Shown: positions 20,999 through 62,333, numbered from the whole stretch's first letter. The stretch is DNA of 63,606 nucleotides, filler included, from Stramenopiles sp. TOSAG23-6 (GCA_900128565.1; 46 parts of 46 records of this genome joined end to end with filler, not necessarily neighbours in it); one strand, 5' to 3'. The notes: generated from the sequence alone by a model not told the origin. Numbers and translations are program-made.

Positions 20999-22129
20999 TT
21001 AATCAAGCAAAAAAGACACAGAAAAGTCAAATAAAGACTAGGTTTTCACTATCTAGTACATATTTGTTCAATCAGCATATTGTATTCGATATAAATGAAG
21101 AAATAAAAAAAACAACAAAATATCAGTTACAAATAGATAACTCACTGGAAAAAAATAAAAAAAAACAGAAAAAAAGATTTAAAAATATGAAGCATTGTAC
21201 AAGAATAAAACAAATGAAAAAAAATCCAGTTTTGGCATTTGAGATATCAAGTAATTGTAGTATAAACACAATAAACACAATAAACGCAGCCAATGATATG
21301 GAAAGCTTTGGTTGTATGTATGTTTTATTTTTTTTTTTTTACAAAAAATCGAATTTGTTTTTATAGGAAAATAAATTGTCCAACTCTACTTGATAATAAA
21401 TCTATTTTATTTCTTGCTATGGTCAATGAAAGCGTACTTTCTAACCCTAATCAAAGTGGGGTATTTCATCCTAATTTAAATAACAATTTAAATGGATTTC
21501 CTAATGTAAATAACAATTTAAATGGGTTACAATCAAACCAGTTCAAGGACAAATATGACTATGAAGCAGTATATAAATCTATTATTTCTGATGTATCTAA
21601 CAAACGCCAGCGGTGTTATGTTTGTAATTATTGCCCTGGAACTTTTGAGATCAAACCATTTAACGTCCCTTTTATTTTACCTATAGAAAGTATTACTCCA
21701 AAAAATCAACAAAACCCTAATCCTAATCATAAACATCATAAACATCATAATCATCATAAACATCATAAACACCCTAACTCCAACACTAATATACATCATA
21801 AACATAAACATCATACACATAAAAATGATGACAAATCTCAAAACAATGAAACATTTAACCCTACACCACAATTATTCTTCTGTATTGGTGAAAGTAATAC
21901 AGAAAGTGTAGATAAACCATACAAGGATATGAAGATACTAGGAGGTGGATTTCTTAATTTATCCCAACAAAATGTTCAACGAATGGACAAAGAAAGTTTG
22001 AATGTTTATAAAAATAATGATAAAAATTGTATCATTGGGACAGTAGAAGTGAGCTGGACACGTGTCAATACGTTAACATCATTACAAAAACGATTACCTA
22101 GACTTAACCCTTTTGTAGAAGATATTTAT
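20999..22129 (+). CDS. Hypothetical multi-exon protein with His/Asn-rich insert
   Basis: Exons bounded by repeat-family ends at 20998, 21318-21366 and 22130. Confidence 0.5.
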
Positions 22130-22341: not shown

Positions 22342-23448
22342 ACGTTCTCATTGCAAAATGTAAGCGACTATTTCGCATACGACTGATACAAACATTCATA
22401 ATGCCACGTGTCTTTTTTCGTATTCGAACGTAATCAAGCCATGTACTTTGGAAAATATTTTTTTAGTAAAAAATCTAAAAAAATTGTTAGGTACAAAATT
22501 TTTTTTACAAAAAAAAAAAAAAAAAAAATTCAATTTCAAAATTTAAAAAAAAAAAAAAAACATACATTGATGAAAAGGTTTGCTTTTTTCAATTAATTTC
22601 CAACGCAGAGCAAAACGAGATATTAATAATCGTTGCCGTTTTTGTTCCATAGCAGTTTCGTGCCATGTTGTAAATGCAGTACTTTTTTCAATTAATTTCC
22701 AACGCAAAGTGAAACGAGATAATAATAATCGTTGTCGTTTTTGTTCAATAGCAGTTTCGTGCCATGTTGTAAATGCTGAACTTGCAGTTGTAAATTTTAT
22801 TCGCCAAATTATACTCTTCATTTTTTGTATTTGTTTTCTAAGCTCAAACACGAAATAAGTCCACTTTTGGAATGCAAATGTCAAACGACCAAATGTTGAA
22901 TGTCTGGCTAATTGCAATATAATTCGTTTCAATCGTAATCGTTTTTGATAAAATATCTTCCATTTTTGAAACACCAAATATTGTAAAAAATATTTCAATT
23001 TTTTTTTTTTTTTTTTTTTTTGTTAGGTACAAAATTTACTATGAAAATATTTTTGAATTTTTTTTTTCTGAAAATAAGCAAAATCAAAATCAAAATGTAA
23101 CCTACATTGGTACAAGATGCACAGAACGCAATCCACATGTTAATTCAGCCATATCTCTTCTTTGTTTTGCCATTTTAGTTTGAGCTGTCCAGGCGCGAAA
23201 AATTGTAGATAATAATGATAAAGTGGAATGACTAGCAATTGATCGTACACTGAATTGTAAAAAAAAAAAAAAAAATTAAATTTTTGTTAGGTAAAAAATT
23301 TCGTCCAAAAAAAAAAAAAAAAAATAAATGAATGAATAAAGCCATAATGAAAACATATATACTATGTGCGACTTCCTTACTTAATGTTGCTAAAGATGAT
23401 CTTAAATCATTATTTTCTGCCATTAATTCATTTAATCGTTGTTCATTC
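22342..23448 (-). CDS. Sfi1-like (centrin-binding type) W-repeat protein, partial, multi-exon
   Basis: Repeated AF..W motif (FAFQKW, SAFTTW, PFHQW) at ~33-aa spacing. Confidence 0.7.
22441..22565 (-). other. GT-AT intron
   Basis: caa t|GTATGTTTT…CAAAGTACAT|gg rebuilds the repeat Trp codon (PFHQW). Confidence 0.85.
23250..23358 (-). other. Repeat-family intron, AT-AG variant
   Basis: agt at|ATATGTTTTC…TACAATTCAG|t gta; this donor gives the right phase, the nearby GT 4 nt upstream does not. Confidence 0.6.
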
Positions 23449-27530: not shown

Positions 27531-27979
27531 TTGAAATTTGAAAATTTGAGGTTTTTTTTGCTTTACTGTTATAAGTATTAAAATGTTTATAAAACAGAAA
27601 TCAATTCATTCTAAATAATAGATGGTATGAAATTCATATTTATTTCTTTCAATTTCAATTGAGAGTATAATATAAAAATAATATTTCATCCATTTGTTTT
27701 TGTTTGTTTTTGTTTGACGTCTTTTTACACTAAAAANNNNNNNNNNNNNNNNNNNNNNNNNNNNNNNNNNNNNNNNNNNNTTAATTAATTAANNNNNNNN
27801 NNNNNNNNNNNNNNNNNNNNNNNNNNNNNNNNNNNNTTTTTTTTTCGTACGAAATTTCGTACCTAACAAATATTTTTAGATTTTTTTTGAATTTTTTTTT
27901 GAAATTTTTTTTTTCGTACGAAATTTTGTACCTAACAAATGTTTTTAGATTTTTTTTGAAATATTTTTACAAAATACTT

Positions 27980-28324: not shown

Positions 28325-29024
28325 CTAAAAATTTTTTTTTTTTTCATCATATATTTGTAATTTTTAAAATTTAAAATTTTTTTTTTTGAAATGTTTTTTA
28401 ACCTTTTGAAATGTTTTACATTGTACAAACAATGCATGTCTACTCAAATATTGCTGTGACACACAAACAAAAAAAAATGTATCAAAAACATCTACAAAAA
28501 ATAAAAAAGATGTAACAAAAAATCAAGCTCTACACCCTAACCCTAACCCTAATAACAAACAAACATCAATATTAAAAATGTCACAAAAAAACACAAAACA
28601 TATTTTTACAGTATTAAGAAAAGCCGCACAACATCCATTGTTATTACGTACTTTATATACAAATACTATAATACAAAAACTAGCACAATTTTTTTTGGGT
28701 ATGAAAATTTTTGGTACTCAAGCGACCTATTCAATGTATGTTTTATGTTTTTTCAATTTTTTATCTAAATATATATATTTTTTTCATACGAAATTTTGTA
28801 CCTAAGAAATTCTGATTTTTTTTTTTACTATTTTCCAAAAATATTTTTTTTCATACGAAATTTTTTACCTAAGAAATTCTGAATTTTTTTTTTACTATTT
28901 TCGAAAAATAAATGGTATTGGAAGAGTTATTATCGTATTCAGATTATAAATTACATGAATTATGTAGTGAATATAAAGATGAAAATAAATGGATTGGTGA
29001 TCAATGTTTGCCTATGGATCAAAT
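27980..29024 (+). CDS. SMARCAD1/Fun30-like SNF2 helicase, partial, multi-exon
   Basis: VLRREKKNVL..ILPK, LRKAAQHPLLLR, spliced LEELLSYSDYKLHELC. Confidence 0.8.
28736..28913 (+). other. GT-AT intron with duplicated 3' module
   Basis: tca at|GTATGTTTT…GAAAAATAAAT|g gta ttg gaa keeps the frame into SDYKLHELC. Confidence 0.78.
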
Positions 29025-29323: not shown

Positions 29324-29669
29324 TTATGCTATTGCTTTAAATGCTGTACAAAATGTTATTTCTACTACTACTACTGAGTTGAATTACTTTGGTGATGAAA
29401 ATTTTAAAAATAGTGAAAATTTTAAAAATAGTGAAAACTTTAAAAATAGTGAAAATTTTAAAAATAGTGAAAATTCTAAAAATAGTGAAAATTCTAAAAA
29501 TAGTGAAAATTTTAAAAATAGTGAAACTGATGAAATAGAAAGAATGGAACAACAGTCCATTGAAATTGCTATTCAACAAGTTCAACATTTCATACAACAA
29601 AAACAAATAAGAAAATTAAAACATATTGCAAAATTAGCTGCTCTTGGTGCACTTCAAAATGCAACTTAT
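29324..29669 (+). CDS. Exon of an unknown protein with an 18-bp (NSENFK)n repeat
   Basis: Open frame between repeat-family intron ends; AATAGTGAAAATTTTAAA about 7 times. Confidence 0.55.
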
Positions 29670-30605: not shown

Positions 30606-31888
30606 ACATACCTTGCCATTCGCATCAACAAAAGTACATGACTTGCGACAACACATACCGTCATTCAAAAAATATGTTGTTAGCGGTTTGCATCCTTCAG
30701 GTACGACTAAAGGAGCCCGGCAATGACAACCACCTTTATATTCATTGCAACGATCAGTGGAGTCAAAGAAATAATCTTTTATTACCTCATAACATACTTC
30801 ACCCTTTTCTTTACAATCGGAATTGCTCTCACAAGCGACTACTTTTTTATGATTTACTGATGGAACCCGGCAATGACAACCGCCTTTATATTCATTGCAA
30901 CGATCGCTGGATTTAAAGAACAAATCTTTTCTTACCTCATAACACAGTTCATCTTTTTCTTTACAATCGGAATTGCTCTCACAAGGGATTACTTTCTTGT
31001 GTAGAGACGGACATTTTTCATCAGGACATTTATCATCTTGAGGTCCTTTGATTTTGTCACATTCTACTTGATTACACGCCATTTTTGTGCAACTAAGAAC
31101 TCCATCGACACAATCACATGTATTACAACTGTTANTACCGGTATCATTGCCTTTCCATCCATCCTTCACTTTTTCTCCACCAGTAAGTTGACATTCTTTT
31201 TTCTCCATTGGTCCACAAACCTTGCCATTCGTATCAACAAAATAACAGGGCTTAGGACAACATTTTCCAAATATGTCAGAGAAAACATCCTCAGGTTCAC
31301 AGCCTTCAGGCGGTGGAGGGCATTTGGCAACCGGACAGTCTTTATCTTCAGGTCCAGTTTGCTTATCACATTTGAATTCTTCTGGTTCAACGCATTTATC
31401 TGACTTGCTTTCATCAAATGTACATTTCATTTCCTCTCCATCTTTATATGCACAAGCTTTACCTCCGGCACTAGGTTTCACCTTCACGACATACTTTTTC
31501 ATACACTGCGCATCACATTCTGTAAATGAACCTTGACAATCTTCCGTTTTGGTTCCACAAGAAGGTCCTTCATGTCCTGTACCAGAACAGTCGCATTTAG
31601 GTGTGCCTAACGAACTTGCGACACAAACTCCCTTGTTAAGACATTGAACACTAGAGCAATCAACGCATAGATCTGACTTGCTTTCATCAAATGTACATTT
31701 CATTTCCTCTCCATCTTTATATGCACAAGCTTTACCTCCGGCACTAGGTTTCACCTTCACGACATACTTTTTCATACACTGCGCATCACATTCTGTAAAT
31801 GAACCTTGACAATCTTCCGTTTTGGTTCCACAAGAAGGTCCTTCATGTCCTGTACCAGAACAGTCGCATTTAGGTGTGCCTAACGAAC
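30606..31888 (-). CDS. Cys-rich extracellular protein (EGF-like, TSP1-like and pacifastin/VWC-like repeats), partial
   Basis: CLNKGVC…CDCSGTGHEGPSC, CNTCDCVDGVLSCTKMAC, duplicated modules. Confidence 0.75.
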
Positions 31889-32070: not shown

Positions 32071-33140
32071 GAAATGTAGAATGGGTCCAAAAAAATTGTC
32101 CAATCACAAATATTCGTGCAAAAATGTTTTCAAAAAAATGGGGAATAGAAAAATTAGAACAAATGATGTATCTTTTTTTTTTTTTTTACAAAAAAATCAA
32201 TTTTTTTTTTTTTGGTTTTTATAGTAAATTTTGTACCTAACAATTTTTTTTTAGATTTTTTTTGAAATATTTTTTCATCATACATGACACGTGCTCAGAA
32301 TGCACGTTTAGTACAAGCTTTTAAGAAATGGGAAGAATTCGCTGAATTTGATCGATGTCAAGAAATGTATGTTTTTTTTCTGTCCAAAAAATTCCTTTTT
32401 TTTTTTTTTTTTTTTTGTTTTTTTTGTATGAAATTTTGTATGAAATTTCGTACCTAATACACCAAAATATACCAAAATATATATAGTACACAAAACATGG
32501 CTGAACGATATTTAAAATGGAAGGGTTCACGAACTGTTATATCAATGATATTAAATAAAGAACATGCCCATATATTATCTGCATTTAATAAATGGAATAA
32601 TACTATTGCACAAATGATTATTAATGAACGGGAAGATGCATGTAAGTTTTATTTTTTTTTTAATTTTTTAATTTTTTTTTTTTGAAAATTTTGTACCTAA
32701 CAATTTTTTTTTTATTTTTTTTTTGTATGAATTTTTTTTTTATAAAAATTTTGTACCTAACAATTTTTTTTTTGGTAAAAATTTTTGAAATATTTTTTCA
32801 AAATACATCCATTATAATACAAAAGGCTATTCGTGGTTTTATTTCAAAATGTAGAATAATTCAACTCAAACAAAATAATGCAATCATTGTTTTACAAAGA
32901 ATAGCAAGAGGACGACAAGGGCGTAAACAATATAAACGTAAAGTGTTTGAAAGAATTCGGTATGATGCAGCTGCACTCATTCAAAACACTTTTAGGAATT
33001 GGGATGCTCGAATGATGGCAAAGGTTGTGATGCAAAAATTAAGAGAAGAGAAAGCAATAGGGCGAATGCAAGCAGTGTATCGTGGTCATCGAGGGCGAGA
33101 AGAATATAGACGTAAGATAGAAGAACGTAATGAAAACAAT
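32071..33140 (+). CDS. IQ-motif / W-repeat protein, partial, four exons
   Basis: AFKKW, AFNKW, IQKAIRG, LQRIARG, MQAVYRG; exons join in frame across three GT-AT introns. Confidence 0.78.
32168..32285 (+). other. GT-AT intron
   Basis: atg at|GTATCTTTT…CATCATACAT|g aca. Confidence 0.72.
32367..32498 (+). other. GT-AT intron
   Basis: gaa at|GTATGTTTT…CACAAAACAT|g gct gaa, phase consistent. Confidence 0.78.
32642..32808 (+). other. GT-AT intron with duplicated branch module
   Basis: gca t|GTAAGTTTT…CAAAATACAT|cc att gives DAS-IIIQKAIRG (IQ motif). Confidence 0.85.
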
Positions 33141-37947: not shown

Positions 37948-38799
37948 ATGGAGCCATTGTCTAATCGCTCCTCTACAACAAAATCATCAGATAATAAAAA
38001 CAAAAATGAGAAAGAAACAAAAGAAACCAAAGAAACAAAAGAAACAAAAGAAACAAAAAAAACAAAAGACAGATGGTGGAATATGCGGCGTGCAAAATAT
38101 CCTAATATTGACCATCGACAAAAGCGAGTTGACATGCTCCCAGGTGGTCGACCATGTCCTCGTTTGACAGGTCATTTACGTGTATGTATTCCTCAAACTC
38201 TTGATATTGAAGTGAGTACAATAGATCCTACAATGAATCGCCGACAACGACGGAAAGAAAGACGTAATAAACGAAAAGCAAAAGGTAAACAACTAAACAT
38301 GAGTGGAATAGACTTGAATAAAAACAGTTTTGTAACAAATTCAACAAAACATCAAAGTATTGATGATAGTATTGACTCTACTATATCCTTATTCTCTAAT
38401 CTTTCGATGAAATGGAGAGATTTTTACGTTCGTATACGAAAATTACCTAATAAAACTGTCGGTATCATTGAATGCTATGTACACAAAAATATGTTTAAAC
38501 CAACATGTACATTTCTCCTCCATCCTACATCAAAAGTGTGTATATTGGATAATAATAAAGATAAAGTTGTTCAACATAATACACTAAAAACACGAAAAAC
38601 ACAAAAAACACAAAAAATACAAAATTCACAAAAAAAAAGTGAAATAATGATGTTTACATGTATTTTATTTTATTTTTTCACAAAAAAATCGATTTTTTTT
38701 TTATAGTAAATTTTGTACCTATAACAAATTTTCAAATTTTTTTTTTGTGAAATATTTTTCCAAAAGACATGGATGTTAACAAGTCCAAAAACAAAAACA
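37948..38799 (+). CDS. Hypothetical protein (possible PH-like domain), 5' part; repeat-family intron 38660-38770
   Basis: WRDFYVRI…IECY…PTCTFLL in a long ORF. Confidence 0.55.
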
Positions 38800-45703: not shown

Positions 45704-47263
45704 NNNNNNNNNNNNNNNNNNNNNNNNNNNNNNNNNNNNNNNNNNNNTTAATTAATTAANNNNNNNNNNNNNNNNNNNNNNNNNNNNNNNNNNNNNNNNN
45801 NNNATTCAAGTTATTCTCGTTTTTCAACAACACCTGAATGGGAGTCTACTTTACGAAGTCATACAATATCAAAGAAATCTTTGGTAAATGAAAAAAGAAG
45901 AATGCGACATGGGCAGAAAAATCAGACATCGGAAAATGTAGATATCAAAAGATGTACACCGATGAACCTATTTACTGACTAATTATCTAATGATGAAGAA
46001 TATAAATAGAATTCATACAATATCAAAGAAATCTTTGGTAAATGAAAAAAGAAGAATGCGACATGGGCAGAAAAATCAGACATCGGAAAATGTAGATATC
46101 AAAAGATGTACACCGATGAACCTATTTACTGACTAATTATCTAATGATGAAGAATATAAATAGAATNNNNNNNNNNNNNNNNNNNNNNNNNNNNNNNNNN
46201 NNNNNNNNNNNNNNNNNNNNNNNNNNNNNNNNNNNNNNNNNNNNNNNNNNNNNNNNNNNNNNNNNNNNNNNNNNNNNNNNNNNNNNNNNNNNNNNNNNNN
46301 NNNNNNNNNNNNNNNNNNNNNNNNNNNNNNNNNNNNNNNNNNNNNNNNNNNNNNNNNNNNNNNNNNNNNNNNNNNNNNNNNNNNNNNNNNNNNNNNNNNN
46401 NNNNNNNNNNNNNNNNNNNNNNNNNNGGTTCCCACTTGGTTCACTAACAATTGTTATTACATATCTCTGAGATGTAATATTTTTATTGAATTTTAGGACA
46501 CATATGATCATTTTTTTTCATTTTACATTTTTTTGTATGAAATTTTGTACGTAAGCCAAAAGTCGTCCAGATGCCGGCTTGAAAATTTAAATCCGCGATG
46601 ATCATCAGAATCATCGGAAAAAAATAACTTGATAGAAAAAATGAGTCAATTGGCCTTTTTTGGATATACATGAAATTAGTTGGGTAGAGGTCATTTTTAA
46701 TTACTATGAGAGCAAAGCCACCACCTCCTCCTCTTACTATATTTTCGAATAGTAGTCCTAATGTATCTTTATTACATATCTCTGAGATGTAATATTTTTA
46801 TTGAATTTTAGGACACATATGATCATTTTTTTTCATTTTACATTTTTTTGTATGAAATTTTGTACGTAAGCCAAAAGTCGTCCAGATGCCGGCTTGAAAA
46901 TTTAAATCCGCGATGATCATCAGAATCATCGGAAAAAAATAACTTGATAGAAAAAATGAGTCAATTGGCCTTTTTTGGATATACATGAAATTAGTTGGGT
47001 AGAGGTCATTTTTAATTACTATGAGAGCAAAGCCACCACCTCCTCCTCTTACTATATTTTCGAATAGTAGTCCTAATGTATCTNNNNNNNNNNNNNNNNN
47101 NNNNNNNNNNNNNNNNNNNNNNNNNNNTTAATTAATTAANNNNNNNNNNNNNNNNNNNNNNNNNNNNNNNNNNNNNNNNNNNNAAAAAAAAACTAAAATT
47201 TGTTAGGTACAAAATTTCGTACGAAAAAAAAAATTCGAAATTGAAAAAAAAACTAAAACATAC

Positions 47264-48369
47264 ATTGTCATTCCAACAGTTACAGCTGCACAAATTCCCA
47301 TTGACGCAATGACCATCGGTGGTAGGACCAACATCATCAGGAAACAAAGCAATAATGTACTTCCAGAAACAAATACAATTTTCCCAGATGTTAACAACAT
47401 AATAGATACGGCATCAGCAGCAGATTTTCCGGAATTAAGTATTGTGAAAAAATATATTTTTCAAAAAAAATCGTTAGGTACAAAATTTCGTACGAAAAAA
47501 AAATAAATTTGAAATTCCTACTAAAAACATACAATCTCCTGTTGAAAACGAGAAAATAAAAACATCGAATAATCGATTGACATGGCGAGAGATACAGCAA
47601 TCATCAAAGATGGTGCGACATTACTTACAGATACTCGGAATGTTATCGGATACATAATCAACACACTCACTGAAGAACAAATGATTAAATTTGCTAATGT
47701 ACATATATTGTGAAAAAATATTTTTTTGTAAAAAAATCGTTAGGTACAAAATTTCGTACGAAAAAAAAATTGAAAATTGAAAAAAAAATAAAACATACAT
47801 AAAACAAGACGAACATTTTGAACAACACAGCCTAAAATGAATAGAGCAAAGGGCATCGTCAAAGATGAGATATTCATAGTAGTTTCTATACCCTGTTTTA
47901 CAGAACTAAGCATCGAAATTACATCACTTATTTTTACAGAGAGAGTTGTGGGAGATTTTATGGCTTCTTCATGAAGAAAATTGCTAATCGATTTTGCAAT
48001 CGGACCATTAGAAGCTACTTTCGCATTATCGCACTGAGCGACTTGAAATTGCATGTATTGTGAAAAAATATTTTTTTAGTCAAAATTTGTTTTTTTGTTA
48101 AGGTGCAATTTTTTTTGAATCTTTGTAAAAAAAAAAAATAAATTAAAAAATTGAAATGAAAACGTACATTATAGTCGATTTCCTTCCGTCTGCTAAAAAT
48201 TTTGATTGTAACGCATTCCAGAAAAGACCAGTTTGAATAGATACATCAAATTCCACTTTGAATTGTTGTTCCTTTCCAAGTTTTAAACCATTGAGAAAAG
48301 GGCTCGTAAATGGAATTGTTTTCGGTGGTAGGGAATTGATATATTGGAGGTCAATTATTGTCATATCAC
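47264..48369 (-). CDS. MMPL/RND-family transporter, partial, four exons
   Basis: Spliced AMSIDYSMFLFSRFQQEI|NSGKSAADAVSIMLLTSGKIVFVSGSTL matches the MmpL DY.LF..SRF.EE…AG..V..SG.T motif. Confidence 0.85.
47437..47532 (-). other. GT-TT intron (TT direct repeat at both junctions)
   Basis: gag att|GTATGTTTT…CACAATACTT|aat tcc gga gives MmpL-like spacing. Confidence 0.8.
47703..47797 (-). other. GT-AT intron
   Basis: tta t|GTATGTTTT…CACAATATAT|gt aca, phase consistent. Confidence 0.82.
48053..48167 (-). other. GT-AT intron
   Basis: ata at|GTACGTTTT…CACAATACAT|g caa ttt, phase consistent. Confidence 0.8.
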
Positions 48370-48562
48370 ATATATTTTGGAAAAATATTTTTTTGTAAAA
48401 AAAAGTCGTTAGGTACAAAATTTCGTACGAAAAATAAATTCGAAATTGAAAAAAAAATAAAANNNNNNNNNNNNNNNNNNNNNNNNNNNNNNNNNNNNNN
48501 NNNNNNTTAATTAATTAANNNNNNNNNNNNNNNNNNNNNNNNNNNNNNNNNNNNNNNNNNNN

Positions 48563-49841
48563 AACAAGCTTTGCAAGGTGTATTGAGTCAACTACCATGC
48601 AATGAATTATCTAATGAAAATAGAGAAGCTCATAGAAAGGCAATGTTAGGTATATTGAGAACTCTTCCTTGCTCGGAAATATCAGAAGCTAATTTTATTC
48701 TACATGTACAAGCCTTGCGAGTTGTATTGAGTCAACTACCTTGCAATGAATTATCTGTTGCAAATAGAGAAGCACATAGAATTGCAACGCTTGGTATATT
48801 GAATTCTCTTCCTTGTTCAGCAAAATCTGAAGCTAACTTAATATTGCATGAACAAGCTTTACGAGGCATATTGAGTCAACTACCTTGTAATGAACTATCT
48901 GTTACAAATAGAGAAGCACATAGAATTGCAATGCTTGGTATACTGAATGCTCTTCCTTGTTCTGAAAAATCTGAAGCAAACTTAATATTACATCAAAAAG
49001 CTTTACGAGGTATATTGAGCCAACTACCTTGTAATGAACTATCTGTTACAAATAGAGAAGCTCATAGAATTGCAATGCTTGGTATATTAAGTTATCTTCC
49101 TTGTTCTGAAATGTCAGAAGCAAACTTAATGATACACCAACGAGCTTTGCGAGATGTATTGAGTCAACTACCATGTAATGAACTATCTCTTGTAAATAGA
49201 GAAACATCCAGAATTGCGCTGCTTGGTGTATTGAGTACTCTTCCTTGTTTGGAAATGTCAGAAACTAACTTTATTTTACACCAACAAGCTATGCGAGGTA
49301 TACTGAGTCAACTTCCTTGCAATGAACTATCTGTGGCAAATAGAGAAGCACATAGATTTGCAATGCTTGGAATATTGAGTAGCCTTCCTTGTTCCGAAAT
49401 GTCAGAAGCTAACTTTATTCTACATCAACAAGCTTTGCAAGGTGTATTGAGCCAGCTACCATGCAATGAATTATCTAATGAAAATAGAGCAGCACATAGA
49501 AAAGAAACGTTAGGTATACTGAGTCAACTACCATGTAATGGGCTATCTATTGCAAATAGGGAAGCACATAAAATTGTTATGCTTGGTATATTATGTAATC
49601 TTCCCTGTTCCGAAAAATGTGAAGCTAACTTTATTTTACATCAACAAGCTTTGCGAGGTGTGTTGAGCCAGCTACCTTGCAATGAACTATCTATTGCAAA
49701 TAGGGAAGCGCATAGAATTACGATGCTTGGTATATTGAGTAATCTTCCTTGCGCTGAAAAATCTGAAGCTAACTTTATTCTACATCAACAAGCTTTGCAA
49801 GGTGTATTGAGTCAACTACCATGCAATGAATTATCTAATGA
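48563..49841 (+). CDS. Tandem 24-aa repeat protein (alternating A/B units, each with LPC and His), partial
   Basis: About 17 units of 72 bp: ILSQLPCNELSVANREAHRIAMLG / ILSxLPCSExSEANFILHQQALRG; synonymous variation with frame kept. Confidence 0.85.
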
Positions 49842-51319: not shown

Positions 51320-52468
51320 TTCAGGTTCAGGTTCAGGTTCAGGTTGAATTTTAACATCTTTGAGACGATTTTCCCCAAAAGGGAGCTCTCCCCCATCAAC
51401 CCGATATACAATATCTCGGTTGCCTCCGCGAAGAAGGCTTTTGTGAACGTTTTTCATTCCCGATATATACTTTTCCGCGATAATCCGAATTGGATCATAC
51501 AAGGAGGTAGACCCATCGGGATTGTCCAACAGTTGAACAAAAGCAAGTAATTGCTCAGCATTCAAAAGTTTAATATTTTCAAAAACTGTGTGAGGAATCG
51601 CATACTGAAAAGTTCTGTATCTGTTACGTCCTTCATCATCTGGAACCTGATCCCTGCTGATAACATAACGATGCCTATAATGAGTAGAACCGTGATTGTT
51701 TCCTTCAACTTGAGCGATCATTTGATCAACTTCCTTTGGGTCAACGTATCCCACAGCTTTAGGCATTTGACTAAATAAATCAAACATTTTTCCTGCTGTT
51801 GTGCTCAATTTGGCTATCTCACTTGCCTTAGTTGGATTATTTATCATGGCGATTAACACAAAATCAGGAATTTCTCGCATAGACTCTGGAACATATTTGA
51901 AATCCATAGATTCAAGAAGTGCGGCTTTTACTATGTCAGCATCATCTTTCAGCCTGTCAGATAAAACTCGAAACATACAAGACTTGATTGGACTAGACAT
52001 GAACTTGACTTTATCATCAAAAATATTCACATCACTGCAATTTTTTTTTAGGGATTCAAGATTTTCTACGAGACTGTCCGGAGCATAACTGCTTTTGGTT
52101 CTTTCTATCATAATAGAAATGACCTCATCGTGACATTGCAGGTTTTCTGGAAGTGTTTTATAGATGGATTTAGTGCAGTACAATGATGCAATAAGAACAT
52201 CTTGATCATCCCGTAAAGCTTCCGGTATATTCTGAAAGCATTCCTCTGGCGTATAGTTGTTCAGAGCATCTCTTTTCAATAACGCAATTACCACCTCTTT
52301 ATCGTTTATCAAATCACCAACGTCTTGCCATATAAACGAAGAATAGTCAACATAACCGTCACGAGTAACTTCTGCAATAACTTCATCTTTATTATGCCAG
52401 TCTATTGCTTTGGTTGTACCACAAAGCAACGCAATTGCGCTTAACATAATTAGAGCTTTAGAGATCAT
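51320..52468 (-). CDS. Signal-peptide protein with DUF4116-like repeats and (PE)n tail, copy 1
   Basis: DKEVVIAL, IPEALRDDQDVLIA, LSDRLKDDADIVKAA; hydrophobic N-terminus. Confidence 0.75.
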
Positions 52469-52531
52469 TTTCAAGTTGATCAATTTTGATATTTACTCAG
52501 TTCCTCTTCAGCAGGTAGAACTTCTACTCAC

Positions 52532-52597
52532 TCTTTCAAGCTTCTTTCAAGCTTCTTTCAAGCTTCTTTCAAGCTTCTTTCAAGCTTCTTTCAAGCT
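52532..52597 (+). repeat. 11-bp tandem repeat (CTTTCAAGCTT)n; identical at 53910-53975
   Basis: About six units running to the contig end. Confidence 0.9.
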
Positions 52598-52697: not shown

Positions 52698-53846
52698 TTC
52701 AGGTTCAGGTTCAGGTTCAGGTTGAATTTTAACATCTTTGAGACGATTTTCCCCAAAAGGGAGCTCTCCCCCATCAACCCGATATACAATATCTCGGTTG
52801 CCTCCGCGAAGAAGGCTTTTGTGAACGTTTTTCATTCCCGATATATACTTTTCCGCGATAATCCGAATTGGATCATACAAGGAGGTAGACCCATCGGGAT
52901 TGTCCAACAGTTGAACAAAAGCAAGTAATTGCTCAGCATTCAAAAGTTTAATATTTTCAAAAACTGTGTGAGGAATCGCATACTGAAAAGTTCTGTATCT
53001 GTTACGTCCTTCATCATCTGGAACCTGATCCCTGCTGATAACATAACGATGCCTATAATGAGTAGAACCGTGATTGTTTCCTTCAACTTGAGCGATCATT
53101 TGATCAACTTCCTTTGGGTCAACGTATCCCACAGCTTTAGGCATTTGACTAAATAAATCAAACATTTTTCCTGCTGTTGTGCTCAATTTGGCTATCTCAC
53201 TTGCCTTAGTTGGATTATTTATCATGGCGATTAACACAAAATCAGGAATTTCTCGCATAGACTCTGGAACATATTTGAAATCCATAGATTCAAGAAGTGC
53301 GGCTTTTACTATGTCAGCATCATCTTTCAGCCTGTCAGATAAAACTCGAAACATACAAGACTTGATTGGACTAGACATGAACTTGACTTTATCATCAAAA
53401 ATATTCACATCACTGCAATTTTTTTTTAGGGATTCAAGATTTTCTACGAGACTGTCCGGAGCATAACTGCTTTTGGTTCTTTCTATCATAATAGAAATGA
53501 CCTCATCGTGACATTGCAGGTTTTCTGGAAGTGTTTTATAGATGGATTTAGTGCAGTACAATGATGCAATAAGAACATCTTGATCATCCCGTAAAGCTTC
53601 CGGTATATTCTGAAAGCATTCCTCTGGCGTATAGTTGTTCAGAGCATCTCTTTTCAATAACGCAATTACCACCTCTTTATCGTTTATCAAATCACCAACG
53701 TCTTGCCATATAAACGAAGAATAGTCAACATAACCGTCACGAGTAACTTCTGCAATAACTTCATCTTTATTATGCCAGTCTATTGCTTTGGTTGTACCAC
53801 AAAGCAACGCAATTGCGCTTAACATAATTAGAGCTTTAGAGATCAT
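52698..53846 (-). CDS. Identical copy 2 of the DUF4116-like gene (duplicate contig)
   Basis: Contig 52698-53975 repeats contig 51320-52597. Confidence 0.75.
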
Positions 53847-54075
53847 TTTCAAGTTGATCAATTTTGATATTTACTCAGTTCCTCTTCAGCAGGTAGAACT
53901 TCTACTCACTCTTTCAAGCTTCTTTCAAGCTTCTTTCAAGCTTCTTTCAAGCTTCTTTCAAGCTTCTTTCAAGCTNNNNNNNNNNNNNNNNNNNNNNNNN
54001 NNNNNNNNNNNNNNNNNNNTTAATTAATTAANNNNNNNNNNNNNNNNNNNNNNNNNNNNNNNNNNNNNNNNNNNN

Positions 54076-55353: not shown

Positions 55354-55453
55354 NNNNNNNNNNNNNNNNNNNNNNNNNNNNNNNNNNNNNNNNNNNNTTA
55401 ATTAATTAANNNNNNNNNNNNNNNNNNNNNNNNNNNNNNNNNNNNNNNNNNNN

Positions 55454-56730
55454 TGTATTTTTGTTTTTATTCAAAAGACGAATGATGTTTGCTTTTACAT
55501 GATAAAAATGTTTATTTATTGTTAATACTATTGTCATATTGTACAGATTATTGACAATATTTTTGTTTTTATTCAAAAGATGAATGATGTTTAGTTTTAC
55601 ATGATAAAAATGTTTATTTATTTCAAATACTATTGAAATATTGTACAGATTATTTAAAGTATTTTTGTTTTTATTCAAACAATGAATGATAGTTACTTTT
55701 ACATGATAATATATTTATTTATTTCAAATACTATTGACATATTGAACAGATTATTGTTTGTATTTTTGTTTTTATTCAAAAGACGAATGATGTTTGCTTT
55801 AGAATGATAAAAATGTGTATTTATTTTAAATACTATTGGCAAATTGTACACATTATTGGCAGTATTTTTGTTTTTATTCAAAAGATGAATCATGTTTGCT
55901 TTAGAATGATAAAAATGTTTATTTTCTTTCAAATACTCTTGACATATTGTACAGATTATTTAAAGTATTTTTGTTTTTATTCAACAAATGAATGATTTTT
56001 TCTTTTATATGATGAAAATGTTGTTTTATTTCAAACACTATTGATATATTGTACACATTATTTGCAGTATTTTTGTTTTTATTCAAAAGGTGAATGATGT
56101 TTGCGTTTACATGATAAAAAGTTATTTATTTTGCAAATGCTATTGACATGTTGTACAGATTATTTCATGTATTTTTGTTCAAATTCAAAAGATGAATAAT
56201 GTTTCTTTTAGAATGATAAGAATGTGTATTTATATCAAATACTCTTGGCATATTGTACACAATATTGTTGGTATTTTTGTTTTTATTCAAAAGATGAATN
56301 ATGTTTGCTTTTACATGATAAAACTATTTATTTATTTTGTAAACTATTGACATATTCTATAGATTATTGGGTGTATTTTTGTTTTTATTCAAAAGATGAA
56401 TGATGTTTTCTTTTACATGATAAAAATGTATATTTATTTTAAATACTATTGACATATTGTACAGATTTTTTGGTGTATTTTTGTTTTTATTCAAACAATG
56501 AGTGATGTTTGCTTTTACATGATAAAAATTTGTATTTATTTCAAATACTATCGGGATATTGTACACATTATTGAAGATATTTTTGATTTTATTCAAACAA
56601 TAAATGATGTTTGCTTTTACATGATAAAAATGTATATTTATTTCAAATACTATTTACATATTATACATATTATTAAAAGTATTTTTGTTTTTATTCAAAA
56701 GATGAATGATGTTTGCTTTTACATGATAAA
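55454..56730 (-). repeat. 102-bp tandem repeat array filling the whole contig (~12.5 units)
   Basis: ACATGATAA recurs at 55497, 55599, 55701…; reverse complement of the 14670-15236 family. Confidence 0.95.
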
Positions 56731-56900: not shown

Positions 56901-58041
56901 ATTTCATGTTGCTGATCATGTTATATATGACTGGTGGAAAGATGAGGGGCGAGCTACACAAAGAGCAAGAGCAATTCAATATTGGCTAAAACGAGCAACT
57001 TTGAATACTATTCTCTTGGAAAAAACAGACATTATTAATCGTACTGCGGAACAAGCAAGATGTTATGGAATTCCATTTATAGATGTGTATATTGTTTTCC
57101 CTCAAAAATTGTGTAAACTTATTTCGTACGAAATTCCGTACCTAACGATTTTTTTTTTTTTTACTAACAAAAAAAAAAAAAAAAATATTTTTTCACAATA
57201 TATTATTTCGTACGAAATTCCGTACCTAACGATTTTTTTTACTAAAAAAAAAAAAAAAAAAAAAAATATTTTTTTTTCACAATATATGATACACAGAGGT
57301 TCTCAAATTCGTGTAGAGGCCGTCATGAGTCGGATTACTAAGCGGGATGACTATATTTGTCCATCACCAACGCGTGAAGATGTTGTACGTTTTATTATTT
57401 TTTTTTTCCGGTAAAAAAAAAATCGAATTTATTTTTTTATAAAAATGTTGTACCTAACAATTTTTTTATAATTTTTTTTGAAATATTTTTCCAAAATACA
57501 TGCTCAACAACCTGCGATGGAAGCATTACCACAAATCTTGGAACCATCATCATCTAAAGGGGAACAATATTTTGTAGATCCTGTAGTTGTCCTTGATTTT
57601 CAGTCACTTTATCCATCTTTAATAATTGCATATAATTTATGTTTTTCAACGTGTTTTGGGCATCTGAATACAAATCGACTTGGTGTTTTGCCAAAGTATA
57701 CAGCTCCAAAGGATGCTCTATTGCAAGCAACAAGACAAGCACAATTGCGAAAAACGTTTATTTCAAGCACTGGTTGTTGCTTCGCGCCAAGGAAGCAACG
57801 CGAAGGAGTTTTGCCACGTATGTTACGTACGTTTTCATTATGAATTTCAAATTTATTTATTTTTTCGTACGAAATTTTGTACCTAACAAATTTCGATTTT
57901 AATTTTTTTTACAATATATGTGAAATTCTTCAAATGCGAATCGTCTTGAAGAAAGCAATGAAGGAATGTAAATTAAGTGGTGATAGTGAAGAAGCATTAG
58001 TCCTAAACGCTAGGCAGCTGGGTCTGAAACTTATTGCTAAT
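56901..58041 (+). CDS. REV3: DNA polymerase zeta catalytic subunit, partial, four exons
   Basis: [71 protein letters not shown]. Confidence 0.96.
57087..57287 (+). other. GT-AT intron with duplicated 3' module
   Basis: gat gt|GTATATTG…CACAATATAT|g ata cac aga ggt gives FIDVIHRGSQ. Confidence 0.85.
57385..57501 (+). other. GT-AT intron, no junction direct repeat
   Basis: gat gtt|GTACGTTTT…CCAAAATACAT|gct caa caa gives DV-AQQPAME; no AG in the intron. Confidence 0.92.
57827..57919 (+). other. GT-AT intron
   Basis: tta c|GTACGTTTT…ACAATATAT|gt gaa att gives PRMLR-EIL; no AG in the intron. Confidence 0.92.
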
Positions 58042-59451: not shown

Positions 59452-59975
59452 GTATGTTTTATTTTTTTTTTAACAAAAAAATCNNNNNNNNNNNNNNNNN
59501 NNNNNNNNNNNNNNNNNNNNNNNNNNNTTAATTAATTAANNNNNNNNNNNNNNNNNNNNNNNNNNNNNNNNNNNNNNNNNNNNTGATACGCTGAACAATC
59601 CGAAAAATCAAAAACAATCTCTAGTAGAGATTGAAACATCGTCGCCTATGTGGACGACTCGATGGATGGAGGCGTGGTGGAGACCTTCAGCCTGGTATCG
59701 TAGTTGGTCTCTTTCATCATTCGATGAATTATTTATTAATGTAGAAACGGATAAAGACGTACAAACGGAACTGCGGAATAGAATCATAAAGATATTTTGT
59801 AAGGAATTTTGTACCTAACAAATNNNNNNNNNNNNNNNNNNNNNNNNNNNNNNNNNNNNNNNNNNNNNNNNNNNNNNNNNNNNNNNNNNNNNNNNNNNNN
59901 NNNNNNNNNNNNNNNNNNNNNNNNNNNNNNNNNNNNNNNNNNNNNNNNNNNNNNNNNNNNNNNNNNNNNNNNNNN

Positions 59976-60836
59976 TGATACGCTGAACAATCCGAAAAAT
60001 CAAAAACAATCTCTAGTAGAGATTGAAACATCGTCGCCTATGTGGACGACTCGATGGATGGAGGCGTGGTGGAGACCTTCAGCCTGGTATCGTAGTTGGT
60101 CTCTTTCATCATTCGATGAATTATTTATTAATGTAGAAACGGATAAAGACGTACAAACGGAACTGCGGAATAGAATCATAAAGATATTTTGTAAGGAATT
60201 TTGTACCTAACAAATTGTACCTAAGAAAAAACATTTTGAAATATTTTTCCAAAATACATGTCTTGTCATTGAAAGAATGTTTTCCCAAAAAATAATGGAG
60301 AAAAACATGGAAAATGATGAATTAAAATCGGCAGTTATGAAATGTTTACAATGTCGTGAAGATGTTTATGAAATTCGCCTTTGTTCTGGTGGCACCGGAC
60401 AACTTGCTTTTGTGCCTGATACTACGGGAACCGCATGCTTCGAAAGAACTGGTTATGCTAAAAAAAGACTCCGTAGATCTGGTAATAGCGCCGCATCTTC
60501 CATTCGACATTCACAGNNNNNNNNNNNNNNNNNTAAATGCGAATGGCTTGGAGTGACAAATGATGAGAAAGACGTATTGGATGAGGATATAGACAGTTTA
60601 TTGTACCAAAGAAAACAAAGAAATTCTGTTTCAAAATCCAGTACCTCCCCACAGAAAACTATATATAATAACAAAATTCCTCAACAAATTGATAACGACA
60701 AACGCGGTATTATTGAAACAATGTATGGCATCGGACACATTCGTGGATACAGAGATGATGGCGTTGTAATCCTAGATATCCGAGACAATGAAAATACCGA
60801 AGCTGTGTTGTATATGTCTGAAAATACAAAAAATAT
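59976..60836 (+). CDS. Hypothetical protein, two exons; short GT-AT intron at 60191-60259
   Basis: ttt t|GTAAGG…CAAAATACAT|gt ctt joins in frame to ORF 60277. Confidence 0.55.
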
Positions 60837-62021: not shown

Positions 62022-62333
62022 TTAAAAAATATATATAGTAAGATAATTACGATAAAAAATGATATTAATATTGGTTTATTTTTTATTTTTTTAAATATAG
62101 TAAGATAATACGATGGAAAGAACCACAATAACGATAGTATCTATACAATTGCGTGTACTAGTGCCAGTAATAGAAGGTGTACAAACTGGTATGTCCATAT
62201 CATCACCGTCAACTTCCCGAATTACATTATCACNNNNNNNNNNNNNNNNNNNNNNNNNNNNNNNNNNNNNNNNNNNNTTAATTAATTAANNNNNNNNNNN
62301 NNNNNNNNNNNNNNNNNNNNNNNNNNNNNNNNN

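What the first reader, a model, noticed from the sequence alone, without database searches (positions are those of the whole stretch)
47437..47532. The 3' dinucleotide is nearly free: a GT-TT intron, with AC and TT variants elsewhere
In the MMPL gene, att|GTATG…CACAATAC-TT|aat gives SRFQQEI-NSGKSAADAV, matching MmpL spacing. The two bases after CAATAY or AAATAC are also TT at 22976-22977 and 27978-27979, and AC at 5394-5395 (UBA5). Inference: the acceptor is placed 2 nt after a conserved motif whatever those two bases are.
Basis: partly seen in the sequence, partly recalled or inferred. Interest (0 to 1): 0.85.

Follow-up and report, generated by a model that had tools for sequence, protein, structure and literature searches.

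The report
Repeat-derived introns ending in AT, not AG
The flagged stretch is a real 96-base intron, one of dozens of copies of a mobile-element-like intron family in a marine protist that normally ends in AT instead of AG; this copy ends in TT, so the last two bases are relaxed but not free.

Summary
The sequence is as described. 47437-47532 (minus strand) interrupts an MMPL/RND gene. Removing exactly 96 nt restores a protein colinear with the Pfam MMPL profile (position 230|231) and with 11 of 12 homologs, then 12 of 12 in a second alignment. No AG lies near its 3' end.

It is one copy of a ~90-200-nt introner-like repeat: 49 strong hits in a window that is really 46 unrelated ~1.3-kb scaffolds. 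Each copy carries GTATGT, a TACCTAAC box and a T-rich tract, and ends AAYAC plus 2 nt.

The "motif + 2" position holds widely. It gives the best open frame in 17 of 23 copies and exact spacing at 9 of 9 junctions tested. One RNA contig skips the neighbouring 96-nt AT intron.

The two bases are not nearly free. Of 40 ends, 33 are AT, 3 TT, 3 AG and 1 AC; every variant is one substitution from AT.

The focal copy has TT on both flanks, so GT-TT, TG-CT and TT-AC give the same mRNA. No RNA contig covered its junction. The AC copy and one TT copy lack their 5' exon and cannot be tested.

Verdict: a real intron in a GT-AT introner family, a new variant of a known kind.

The parts
47437..47532 (-). 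Focal 96-nt intron of the repeat family, in the MMPL gene. It has TT at its 3' end, and TT also precedes its 5' end.
47527..47532 (-). GTATGT, the family's 5' splice-site hexamer
   Evidence: GTATGT in 13 of 31 copies, GT start in 26 of 31
47473..47480 (-). TACCTAAC box, the putative branch site. The candidate branch A at 47474 lies 37 nt from the 3' end.
   Evidence: That it acts as the branch site is inferred, not shown.
47439..47446 (-). CACAATAC, the conserved terminal box of the element
47437..47438 (-). Terminal TT, in the alignment columns where 33 of 40 family ends have AT
47533..47702 (-). MMPL exon ending ...QQEI
47264..47436 (-). MMPL exon starting NSGK...
47703..47798 (-). Neighbouring 96-nt family intron ending AT. 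One RNA contig skips 96 nt here, with a 6-nt placement ambiguity (TATGTA on both sides).
48053..48167 (-). 115-nt family intron ending AT, in the same gene
47184..47263 (-). 5' part of a further family intron, cut by the contig end
48370..48462 (-). 3' part of a further family intron (ends AT), cut by the contig end
22976..23105 (-). 130-nt family intron ending TT. Its 5' part is not homologous to the family.
   Evidence: the 33-residue repeat period is kept only if 130 nt are removed
27837..27979 (+). Family copy ending TT, with an internal tandem duplication. Its 5' end and 5' exon are missing at the contig start.
5394..5485 (-). Family copy in UBA5 whose motif+2 bases are AC. Its 5' exon lies on another contig.
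4888..4995 (-). Family copy in UBA5 with a canonical GT...AG, the AG sitting at the same motif+2 position

Best explanation
47437-47532 is a spliceosomal-type intron derived from a short, highly multiplied, mobile-element-like repeat (an introner).

What the element carries:
- its own 5' site (GTATGT);
- a branch-site-like box (TACCTAAC);
- a T-rich tract;
- a terminal AAYAC box.

The transcript is cut at the G of GTATGT and 2 nt past the terminal box, which restores the reading frame exactly. In this organism those last two bases are normally AT. It therefore removes GT-AT introns in bulk and passes over internal AGs. The focal copy is a one-base variant (TT) at the same position.

The two bases may be a copy of the insertion-site dinucleotide, since TT flanks this copy on both sides and AT flanks most others. 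That is inferred and only weakly supported.

Shown: family membership, exact 96-nt removal at the protein level, and the fixed position across the family.
Inferred: that the removal is RNA splicing, that the branch point is in TACCTAAC, and that the cut is GT...TT rather than an equivalent register.
For: Family: 49 nhmmer hits at E<=1e-5 in 46 unrelated scaffolds. A 19-copy alignment has conserved ends and core.

Focal junction: Pfam MMPL profile 230|231; adjacent residues in 11 of 12 homologs; no gap against 12 of 12 homologs, where the conserved E-x-x-x-G-[RK] spacing fits only a 96-nt removal. No AG lies between the TACCTAAC box and the 3' end.

Position rule: the motif+2 frame is best in 17 of 23 copies. 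Exact spacing holds at 9 of 9 junctions:
- MMPL, three junctions;
- REV3-like against yeast Rev3, three junctions;
- ASCC3-like, residues 943|944;
- UBA5, residues 144|145;
- a 33-residue repeat protein, for the TT copy at 22976.

RNA: one contig of run X1 skips 96 nt at the neighbouring AT intron. It has 50 nt on its shorter side and no mismatch in the 143 nt laid.

Register: in the UBA5 AG copy, the GT...motif+2 register keeps the alanine that matches human UBA5. In REV3 intron 57385 it keeps the valine that matches yeast V947. The register shifted by 2 would give E and D instead.

Orientation: 39 of 49 copies are sense to the flanking open frames, 2 antisense, 8 ambiguous.
Against: - No RNA contig crosses the focal junction. 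Exon 47264-47436 had no cover in the four runs, and one 151-nt contig of X1 (47525-47675) runs unspliced over the focal 5' site.
- The TT bases rest on one assembly with no second read-out.
- The register evidence is one residue each at two junctions.
- The target-site-duplication idea is weak. The locus-specific direct-repeat signal has permutation p = 0.019. By my count, after resetting one 5' site, only 1 of 8 copies whose two flanks are not both AT has matching dinucleotides, and that one is the focal copy.
- Pairing of the intron ends shows no covariation, and the folds are no better than shuffles.
Confidence: 0.65

Rival explanations
1. The register is shifted by 2. The family would be AT-AC-type (|ATGTATG...AATAC|) and the focal copy TT-AC, so the variable bases would be the first two of the intron, not the last two.
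For: AT precedes the GT in 26 of 31 copies, and AC ends the terminal box in most. For the focal copy, and for every copy with AT on both flanks, the mRNA is the same in either register.
Against: - The UBA5 copy would become CT...AT and put E where human UBA5 has A.
- REV3 intron 57385 would put D where yeast has V.
- GTATGT is the conserved hexamer and fits a 5' site only in the GT register.
Confidence: 0.12
2. The focal intron uses the next AT, 3 nt downstream (...ACTTAAT|), so 99 nt are removed. AT would then be obligatory and TT not a splice site.
For: A 99-nt removal is also in frame, and AT is the family's usual end.
Against: - It would delete one residue inside a block where 12 of 12 homologs keep the spacing, with the G four residues after the E, and where the Pfam profile is continuous.
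- The TT copy at 22976 has no in-frame AT nearby, and its 33-residue period fits the TT position.
Confidence: 0.08
3. The TT is a base-call or assembly error, or a rare allele, of an ordinary AT end.
For: The source is a fragmented assembly: ~1.3-kb scaffolds, gap-flank duplications and one apparent frameshift in an OSCP-like gene. No second data set covers 47437-47438.
Against: Two other copies have TT at the same column, and the 5' flank of the focal copy is TT as well. Nothing points to an error at this place.
Confidence: 0.08
4. The elements are removed from DNA, like the dinucleotide-bounded internal eliminated sequences of ciliates, not from RNA.
For: The elements are short and AT-rich, interrupt coding sequence, have imperfect inverted ends and a repeated flanking dinucleotide, and are removed precisely.
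Against: - Sense bias is strong: 39 sense against 2 antisense of 49.
- Each copy has a full set of splicing-like signals.
- The repeat is abundant in contigs of RNA libraries, and one such contig crosses the focal exon-intron border. DNA carried over into those libraries is not excluded.
Confidence: 0.02

Closest known systems
Introners (transposon-derived spliceosomal introns), e.g. the Chrysochromulina type that carries its 5' site and takes its 3' site from the insertion site. PMC9860276: passages read in 'find' mode.
   Same: Many near-identical short introns sit in unrelated genes. The element carries its own 5' site. Removal is exact, with no change in mRNA length. The ends resemble short inverted repeats, and a dinucleotide is repeated at the flanks.
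   Different: The described families use GY...AG. The later survey (PMC12130899: passages read) lists only AG and AC as accepted 3' sites and discarded families with unfamiliar sites that lacked transcript support. Here the standard 3' end is AT, and AGs inside the intron are bypassed.
Non-canonical introns of Fritillaria (larvacean tunicates). PMC13326754: abstract, section 21 and passages read.
   Same: 3' AT and 3' AC ends are common. A YAY triplet forms the last three bases; here it is CAT, TAT or CAC in 27 of 35 ends. A pyrimidine-A-pyrimidine triplet often precedes the 5' site. The discussion passage I read links weak splice sites to introner transposons.
   Different: The main Fritillaria classes start with AG (AG/AC, AG/AT), whereas here the start is GT(A/C).... 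The organism here is not a tunicate by protein affinity. Whether U2AF is duplicated here could not be examined, because no genome is held.
Amoebophrya introner elements. PMC7789003: abstract and passages read.
   Same: A marine protist with repeated introns that lack GT-AG, and direct repeats of a few nt overlapping the exon/intron borders.
   Different: Amoebophrya elements have 8-20-nt inverted repeats that form hairpins and no preferred terminal dinucleotides. Here the end complementarity is 4+3 nt without covariation, and the termini are strongly GT and AT.
U12-type or U2-type AT-AC introns (features recalled, not from a call)
   Same: They have non-AG 3' ends. Four family copies start ATATGT.
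   Different: The 5' hexamer is GTATGT, not RTATCC. The TACCTAAC box lies 32-84 nt from the 3' end, not about 10-20 nt. The AT-AC register is disfavoured at two informative junctions.

Membership tests
Introner / introner-like element | Many sequence-similar introns in unrelated genes of one genome | tested here: met
   49 nhmmer hits at E<=1e-5 across 46 separate scaffolds, in MMPL, UBA5, REV3-like, ASCC3-like and other genes.
Introner / introner-like element | Exact removal that restores the host reading frame | tested here: met
   9 of 9 junctions have exact spacing. One RNA contig skips 96 nt at 47703-47798. The focal junction rests on homology only.
Introner / introner-like element | Terminal inverted repeats | tested here: inconclusive
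   GTAT(G)TTT against AAATAC: 79% of cells pair, against 27-64% when the partner is slid. It is only 7 pairs, with none changed on both sides.
Introner / introner-like element | Target-site duplication that is specific to each locus | tested here: inconclusive
   Summed left direct-repeat length is 53, against a permuted mean of 45.6 (p = 0.019). Position -3 matches in 10 of 23 copies against 6.7 expected. The focal copy is TT/TT, but seven other copies with non-AT flanks do not match (my count, with one 5' site reset).
Introner / introner-like element | Presence/absence of the intron between close relatives, showing recent gain | not testable with these tools
   No genome is held. There were 0 hits to the 22-mer in metagenome contigs. 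The relatives' proteins P0136 and P0137 are uninterrupted, but they may come from mRNA.
U12-type (minor-spliceosome) intron | 5' site RTATCCTT and a TCCTTAAC branch box about 10-20 nt from the 3' end (consensus recalled) | tested here: not met
   First six bases: GTATGT 13, GTACGT 4, ATATGT 4 of 31. The box-to-3'-end distance is 32-84 nt.
Fritillaria-type non-canonical intron | A YAY triplet as the last three intron bases | tested here: met
   CAT 21, TAT 5 and CAC 1 of 35 ends. The focal copy ends CTT, which is not YAY.
Fritillaria-type non-canonical intron | A non-GT (mostly AG) 5' start, in a larvacean genome | tested here: not met
   GT start in 26 of 31 copies. The best named protein relatives are dinoflagellates and oomycetes.
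Amoebophrya introner element | 8-20-nt inverted repeats forming a hairpin that joins the intron ends | tested here: not met
   Complementarity is at most 4+3 nt. The fold z-scores of five copies run from -0.22 to -1.95.
Ciliate-type internal eliminated sequence | Removal from DNA, independent of gene orientation | tested here: not met
   39 sense against 2 antisense of 49 copies. A contig of an RNA library runs across the exon-intron border.

The most novel reading that the evidence does not exclude
This marine protist places the 3' cut by reading the end of the element (the AAYAC box, or something that measures from it) rather than an AG. A genome-wide burst of one introner family would then have produced a dominant class of GT-AT introns, in which AT, TT, AC and AG are all tolerated at the last two positions. 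It would be a further independent lineage with mass non-canonical splicing, after Fritillaria and Amoebophrya, and one in which public gene models built on GT-AG are systematically wrong.
Probability: 0.4. Interest if true: 0.75.

Novelty: new variant of a known kind. Interest (0 to 1): 0.58.

Why it matters
If confirmed with transcripts, this would show a transposon-like intron family that spreads while ending in AT rather than AG, in a lineage far from the tunicates where 3' AT introns are known. Three things follow.

1. It would give a natural series (AT, TT, AC and AG at one fixed position of one element) for asking how a spliceosome picks a 3' site without AG.
2. Introner surveys that accept only AG or AC ends would miss such families (PMC12130899, passage read).
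3. Gene models for this organism are affected. The database model P0138 on this very contig forces a GT-AG intron, loses four residues that homologs keep, starts at an ATG made of the intron's last AT plus an exon G, and then reads into the focal intron.

My searches found no paper describing GT-AT introns in marine stramenopiles or other protists. Supplements were not seen.

Tried and rejected
- **RNA evidence for the focal junction.** One search found 7 seawater runs holding 5-15% of the sampled words. Laying 47184-48462 on X1-X4 gave no contig across 47437-47532 and no cover of exon 47264-47436, so the focal junction stays untested by RNA. Most laid contigs sit on the repeat itself. Several short-sided joints (21-29 nt) between repeat copies were not interpreted.
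- **More copies from elsewhere.** No genome is held. An exact scan of metagenome contigs with the 22-nt core found 0. Earlier findings of this scan held nothing by place, sequence or words.
- **Same-species transcripts among proteins.** The 'near' and 'longer' searches with the read-through query gave homologs of 30-52% identity, plus P0138, which is a model of this contig itself.
- **Pairing of the intron ends as the ruler.** There is no covariation, every shuffle reaches the observed score, and the folds are not better than shuffles. This is neither supported nor excluded.
- **Distance from the TACCTAAC box as the ruler.** Rejected, because the distance varies from 32 to 84 nt.
- **First AG after the box.** Rejected for the family, because internal AGs are present in 10 of 35 copies and are out of frame where checked.
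- **Rfam.** No family matched in the window at gathering scores.
- **Taxon.** The MMPL gene is nearest to dinoflagellate proteins (~50% identity), and UBA5 to unnamed environmental proteins (54%) and then oomycetes and MAST-4. The source name of P0138 reads like a MAST-3 label. I did not pursue provenance, and the lineage is left as 'marine protist, probably stramenopile'.
- **First automatic frame scan.** It picked wrong 3' boxes in several copies and was replaced by the curated scan.

Full report
**What the window is.** The 63,606 bases are not one stretch of genome. Forty-five spacers (44 N, a 12-nt stop-in-all-frames linker, 44 N) join 46 pieces of 1299 to 1273 nt, sorted by falling length, and two neighbouring pieces are identical. 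Copies 'elsewhere' in the window are therefore on unrelated short scaffolds, and many genes and introns are cut at piece ends. GC is about 19-35% per 2-kb bin. No whole genome is held.

**The observation.** On the minus strand, 47532-47437 reads gagatt|GTATGTTTTTAG...TTTCGTACGAAATTTTGTACCTAAC...CACAATAC TT|aattcc. Read through, the frame has three stops in the 96 nt. The flanking exons are both MMPL (PF03176). Exon 1 residues 18-56 match profile positions 192-230, and exon 2 residues 3-57 match 233-287, so its first residue falls at 231. Against 12 full-length homologs of 30-51% identity (the best named one from Polarella glacialis), the last residue of exon 1 and the first of exon 2 map to adjacent residues in 11. 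The twelfth, from Pelomyxa, has four extra residues. A script-spliced model of the whole 1279-nt contig (exons 48369-48168, 48052-47799, 47702-47533, 47436-47264) is open in one frame. It aligns to 12 homologs without a gap at any of its three junctions.

**What it belongs to.** The stretch is a copy of a repeat. A core search found dozens of copies. A 19-copy alignment shows shared parts: YAT|GTAYGTTTT, a variable T-rich spacer, TTTCGTACGAAATTTTGTACCTAAC, a second T-rich stretch, then TTTTYCAMAATAC plus two bases. A profile built from it gives 80 hits at E<=1, of which 49 are at E<=1e-5. The MMPL contig alone holds five copies. By a crude flanking-ORF measure, 39 of the 49 are sense to the host frame, 2 antisense and 8 ambiguous. 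In the RNA libraries laid, hundreds of contigs pile on the repeat parts: 1006 contigs in X1, of which 544 fit two places. Exons have depth 0-6.

**The position rule.**
- *Frames.* The 5' cut was fixed at the G of GTAYG. The acceptor 2 nt after the terminal box then gives the longest two-sided open frame in 17 of 23 copies with both ends visible. Three are untestable (N or short flank) and two are ambiguous. One had a mis-set 5' site, which homology moved to 57087.
- *Exact spacing* holds at 9 of 9 junctions tested: three in MMPL; three in a REV3-like gene against yeast Rev3, where residues 912+2, then 915, then 916-917, then 947|948-949, then 1050|1051|1052 run on without a gap; one in an ASCC3-like helicase at 943|944; one in UBA5 at 144|145 of chain 5l95_A; and one in a protein made of 33-residue repeats, where only removal of 130 nt keeps the period.
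- *RNA.* One 199-nt contig of run X1 skips 96 nt at 47703-47798. It has no mismatch in the 143 nt laid and a 6-nt placement ambiguity, because TATGTA stands at both borders.

**How free are the last two bases?** Thirty-five curated 3' ends give AT 28, TT 3, AG 3 and AC 1. The profile scan adds five more real AT ends (7496, 16791, 48053, 51184, 61026) and one AT at an internal tandem copy, which I do not count. Two further 'TT' in that table are extrapolated ends of internal half-copies. So of 40 ends, 33 are AT. Position -2 is A in 37 and position -1 is T in 36. Each variant is one substitution from AT. The last three bases are CAT or TAT in 26 of 35. 'Nearly free' overstates it: the position is fixed and the dinucleotide is relaxed.

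**AG is not the signal.** In 10 of 35 copies one or two AGs lie between the TACCTAAC box and the inferred end. The nearest ends 11-13 nt after the box, and some lie inside the terminal box itself. Where I compared them with the open frames (the copy at 22441-22565, and 38660-38770, whose frame test is limited by N), they are out of frame. The distance from the candidate branch A to the 3' end varies from 32 to 84 nt, so the cut is not measured from that box. Three copies do have AG exactly at the motif+2 position. One is in UBA5, where GT...AG gives the human-like ...A|V... junction.

**Which register?** AT precedes the 5' site in 26 of 31 copies; one of these was later reset to GT. Most introns can therefore be read equally well as GT...AT, TG...CA or AT...AC. 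The focal copy, with TT on both sides, can be read as GT...TT, TG...CT or TT...AC. Two informative junctions favour the GT register. UBA5 keeps A where human UBA5 has A, whereas the shifted register gives E. REV3 intron 57385 keeps V where yeast has V947, whereas the shifted register gives D. GTATGT also fits a 5' site only in that register. This is modest evidence, one residue each.

**Where might the two bases come from?** A copy of the insertion-site dinucleotide is attractive. The focal copy has TT/TT, a direct and not a complementary repeat, and AT is its own complement. A permutation test gives a weak locus-specific signal: 53 against 45.6 +/- 3.3, p = 0.019, with position -3 matching in 10 of 23 copies against 6.7 expected. 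But the copies at 57385 (TT/AT), 60191 (TT/AT), 57827 (AC/AT), 57087 (GT/AT), 23105 (AT/TT), 4995 (CT/AG) and 23358 (AT/AG) do not match. The alternative is that the element carries its own AT and prefers to land after AT. The TT of the focal copy would then be a point change and its 5' TT a coincidence (3 of 31 flanks are TT). This is unresolved.

**The other variant copies.**
- 22976-23105 (TT) is supported by frame and by the 33-residue period.
- 27978 (TT) has its 5' exon on another scaffold and cannot be tested.
- 5394 (AC) also lacks its 5' exon. In the printed DNA, an AAT| acceptor 4 nt upstream would make the exon start T-R-C-G. HMMER aligned only R-C-G-I-G-K-L to human UBA5; that human has T before the R is recalled. 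The AC case is open.

**Rival for the focal copy.** An AAT| 3 nt downstream would give a 99-nt GT-AT intron in frame. It deletes a residue where 12 of 12 homologs keep the spacing E-x-x-x-G-[RK], so I rate it low.

**Mechanism.**
- *Shown:* a multiplied element with 5'-site-like, branch-like and T-tract features, sense orientation, exact removal at a fixed place, and AT as the normal end.
- *Inferred:* removal by a U2-type spliceosome that accepts YAT (less often YAG, YTT, YAC) at a place fixed by the terminal AAYAC box.

How the box is read is unknown. Pairing of GUAU(G)UUU with AAAUAC would leave a 2-nt tail, and it occurs in some minimum-energy folds. But there is no covariation and the folds are no better than shuffles. 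A changed U2AF, as in Fritillaria (PMC13326754: abstract and section 21 read), is the other lead and cannot be checked without the genome.

**Comparison with what is known.**
- *Introners* that carry a 5' site and take the 3' site from the insertion site are described with AG ends (PMC9860276, passages read).
- *Fritillaria* has frequent 3' AT and AC ends, with YAY triplets at both borders, but mostly AG starts.
- *Amoebophrya* has repeated non-canonical introns with 3-5-nt direct and 8-20-nt inverted repeats and no preferred termini.
- *Ours* is GT-AT with a short inverted end, in a protist whose proteins are nearest to dinoflagellates (MMPL) or to oomycetes and MAST-4 (UBA5), at about 50-54% identity.

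Searches for GT-AT introns in protists or marine stramenopiles found no description; supplements were not seen. I file it as a new variant of a known kind.

**A practical consequence.** The database protein P0138 is a gene model of this contig. It begins at an ATG formed by the last AT of intron 48053-48167 plus an exon G. It replaces the AT intron 47703-47798 with a longer GT...AG one and so loses the residues C-T-L-A that homolog P0136 keeps. It then jumps into the focal intron and translates it.

Noticed in passing
whole window; spacers at 1300-1399, 2697-2796, ... 62234-62333: The window is a chain of 46 short scaffolds (1299 to 1273 nt, sorted by length) joined by N44 + 12-nt linker + N44 spacers. 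Neighbouring pieces are not neighbours in the genome. Pieces 51320-52597 and 52698-53975 are identical.
   Followed up: yes
47184-48462 (protein P0138): A database gene model on this contig is mis-spliced. It starts at an ATG made of an intron's last AT plus an exon G. It forces a GT...AG intron that drops four conserved residues. It then translates part of the focal intron.
   Followed up: yes
58042, 33458, 23358, 18215 (5' ends of four family copies): Four copies begin ATATGT instead of GTATGT. Three have their 3' ends masked by contig ends, and the fourth (23250-23358) ends AG at the motif+2 place. Whether the first and last bases co-vary cannot be judged.
   Followed up: partly
27837-27979, 28736-28913, 57087-57287, 32642-32808: Several copies carry an internal tandem duplication of the core box and 3' half, giving introns of 167-201 nt with two TACCTAAC boxes.
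   Followed up: partly
21316-21370: A truncated copy appears to end at a canonical ...TTTATAG| after about 55 nt, so short GT-AG derivatives of the family may exist.
   Followed up: no
47184-48462, joints (e.g. 47801 to 48052, 47800 to 48369): Contigs of RNA libraries join the 3' end of one repeat copy to the 5' end of another, with only 21-29 nt on the shorter side. Tandem copies elsewhere, assembly chimeras between copies, or circular intron RNA could all give this.
   Followed up: no
1960-2010: An ATP-synthase OSCP-like gene changes frame by one base, with no intron-like sequence around. This looks like an assembly or base-call indel; the OSCP identification is from recall.
   Followed up: partly
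48563-49841; 55402-56721; 29396-29535; 52521-52597: Coding tandem repeats: a 72/144-nt period encoding a leucine-rich ...LSQLPCNELS... unit, a 102-nt period, a 9/18-nt period (...NSENFK...), and an 11-nt TCTTTCAAGCT run at a scaffold end.
   Followed up: no
22566-23249: A protein of unknown family built of exact 33-residue units with conserved F at position 3 and W at position 6. It was used here only as a ruler for the TT intron.
   Followed up: partly
31601-31884, 46518-46885, 59795-60211: Sequence on one side of internal N gaps is repeated on the other side. These are typical gap-flank duplications of a draft scaffold.
   Followed up: no
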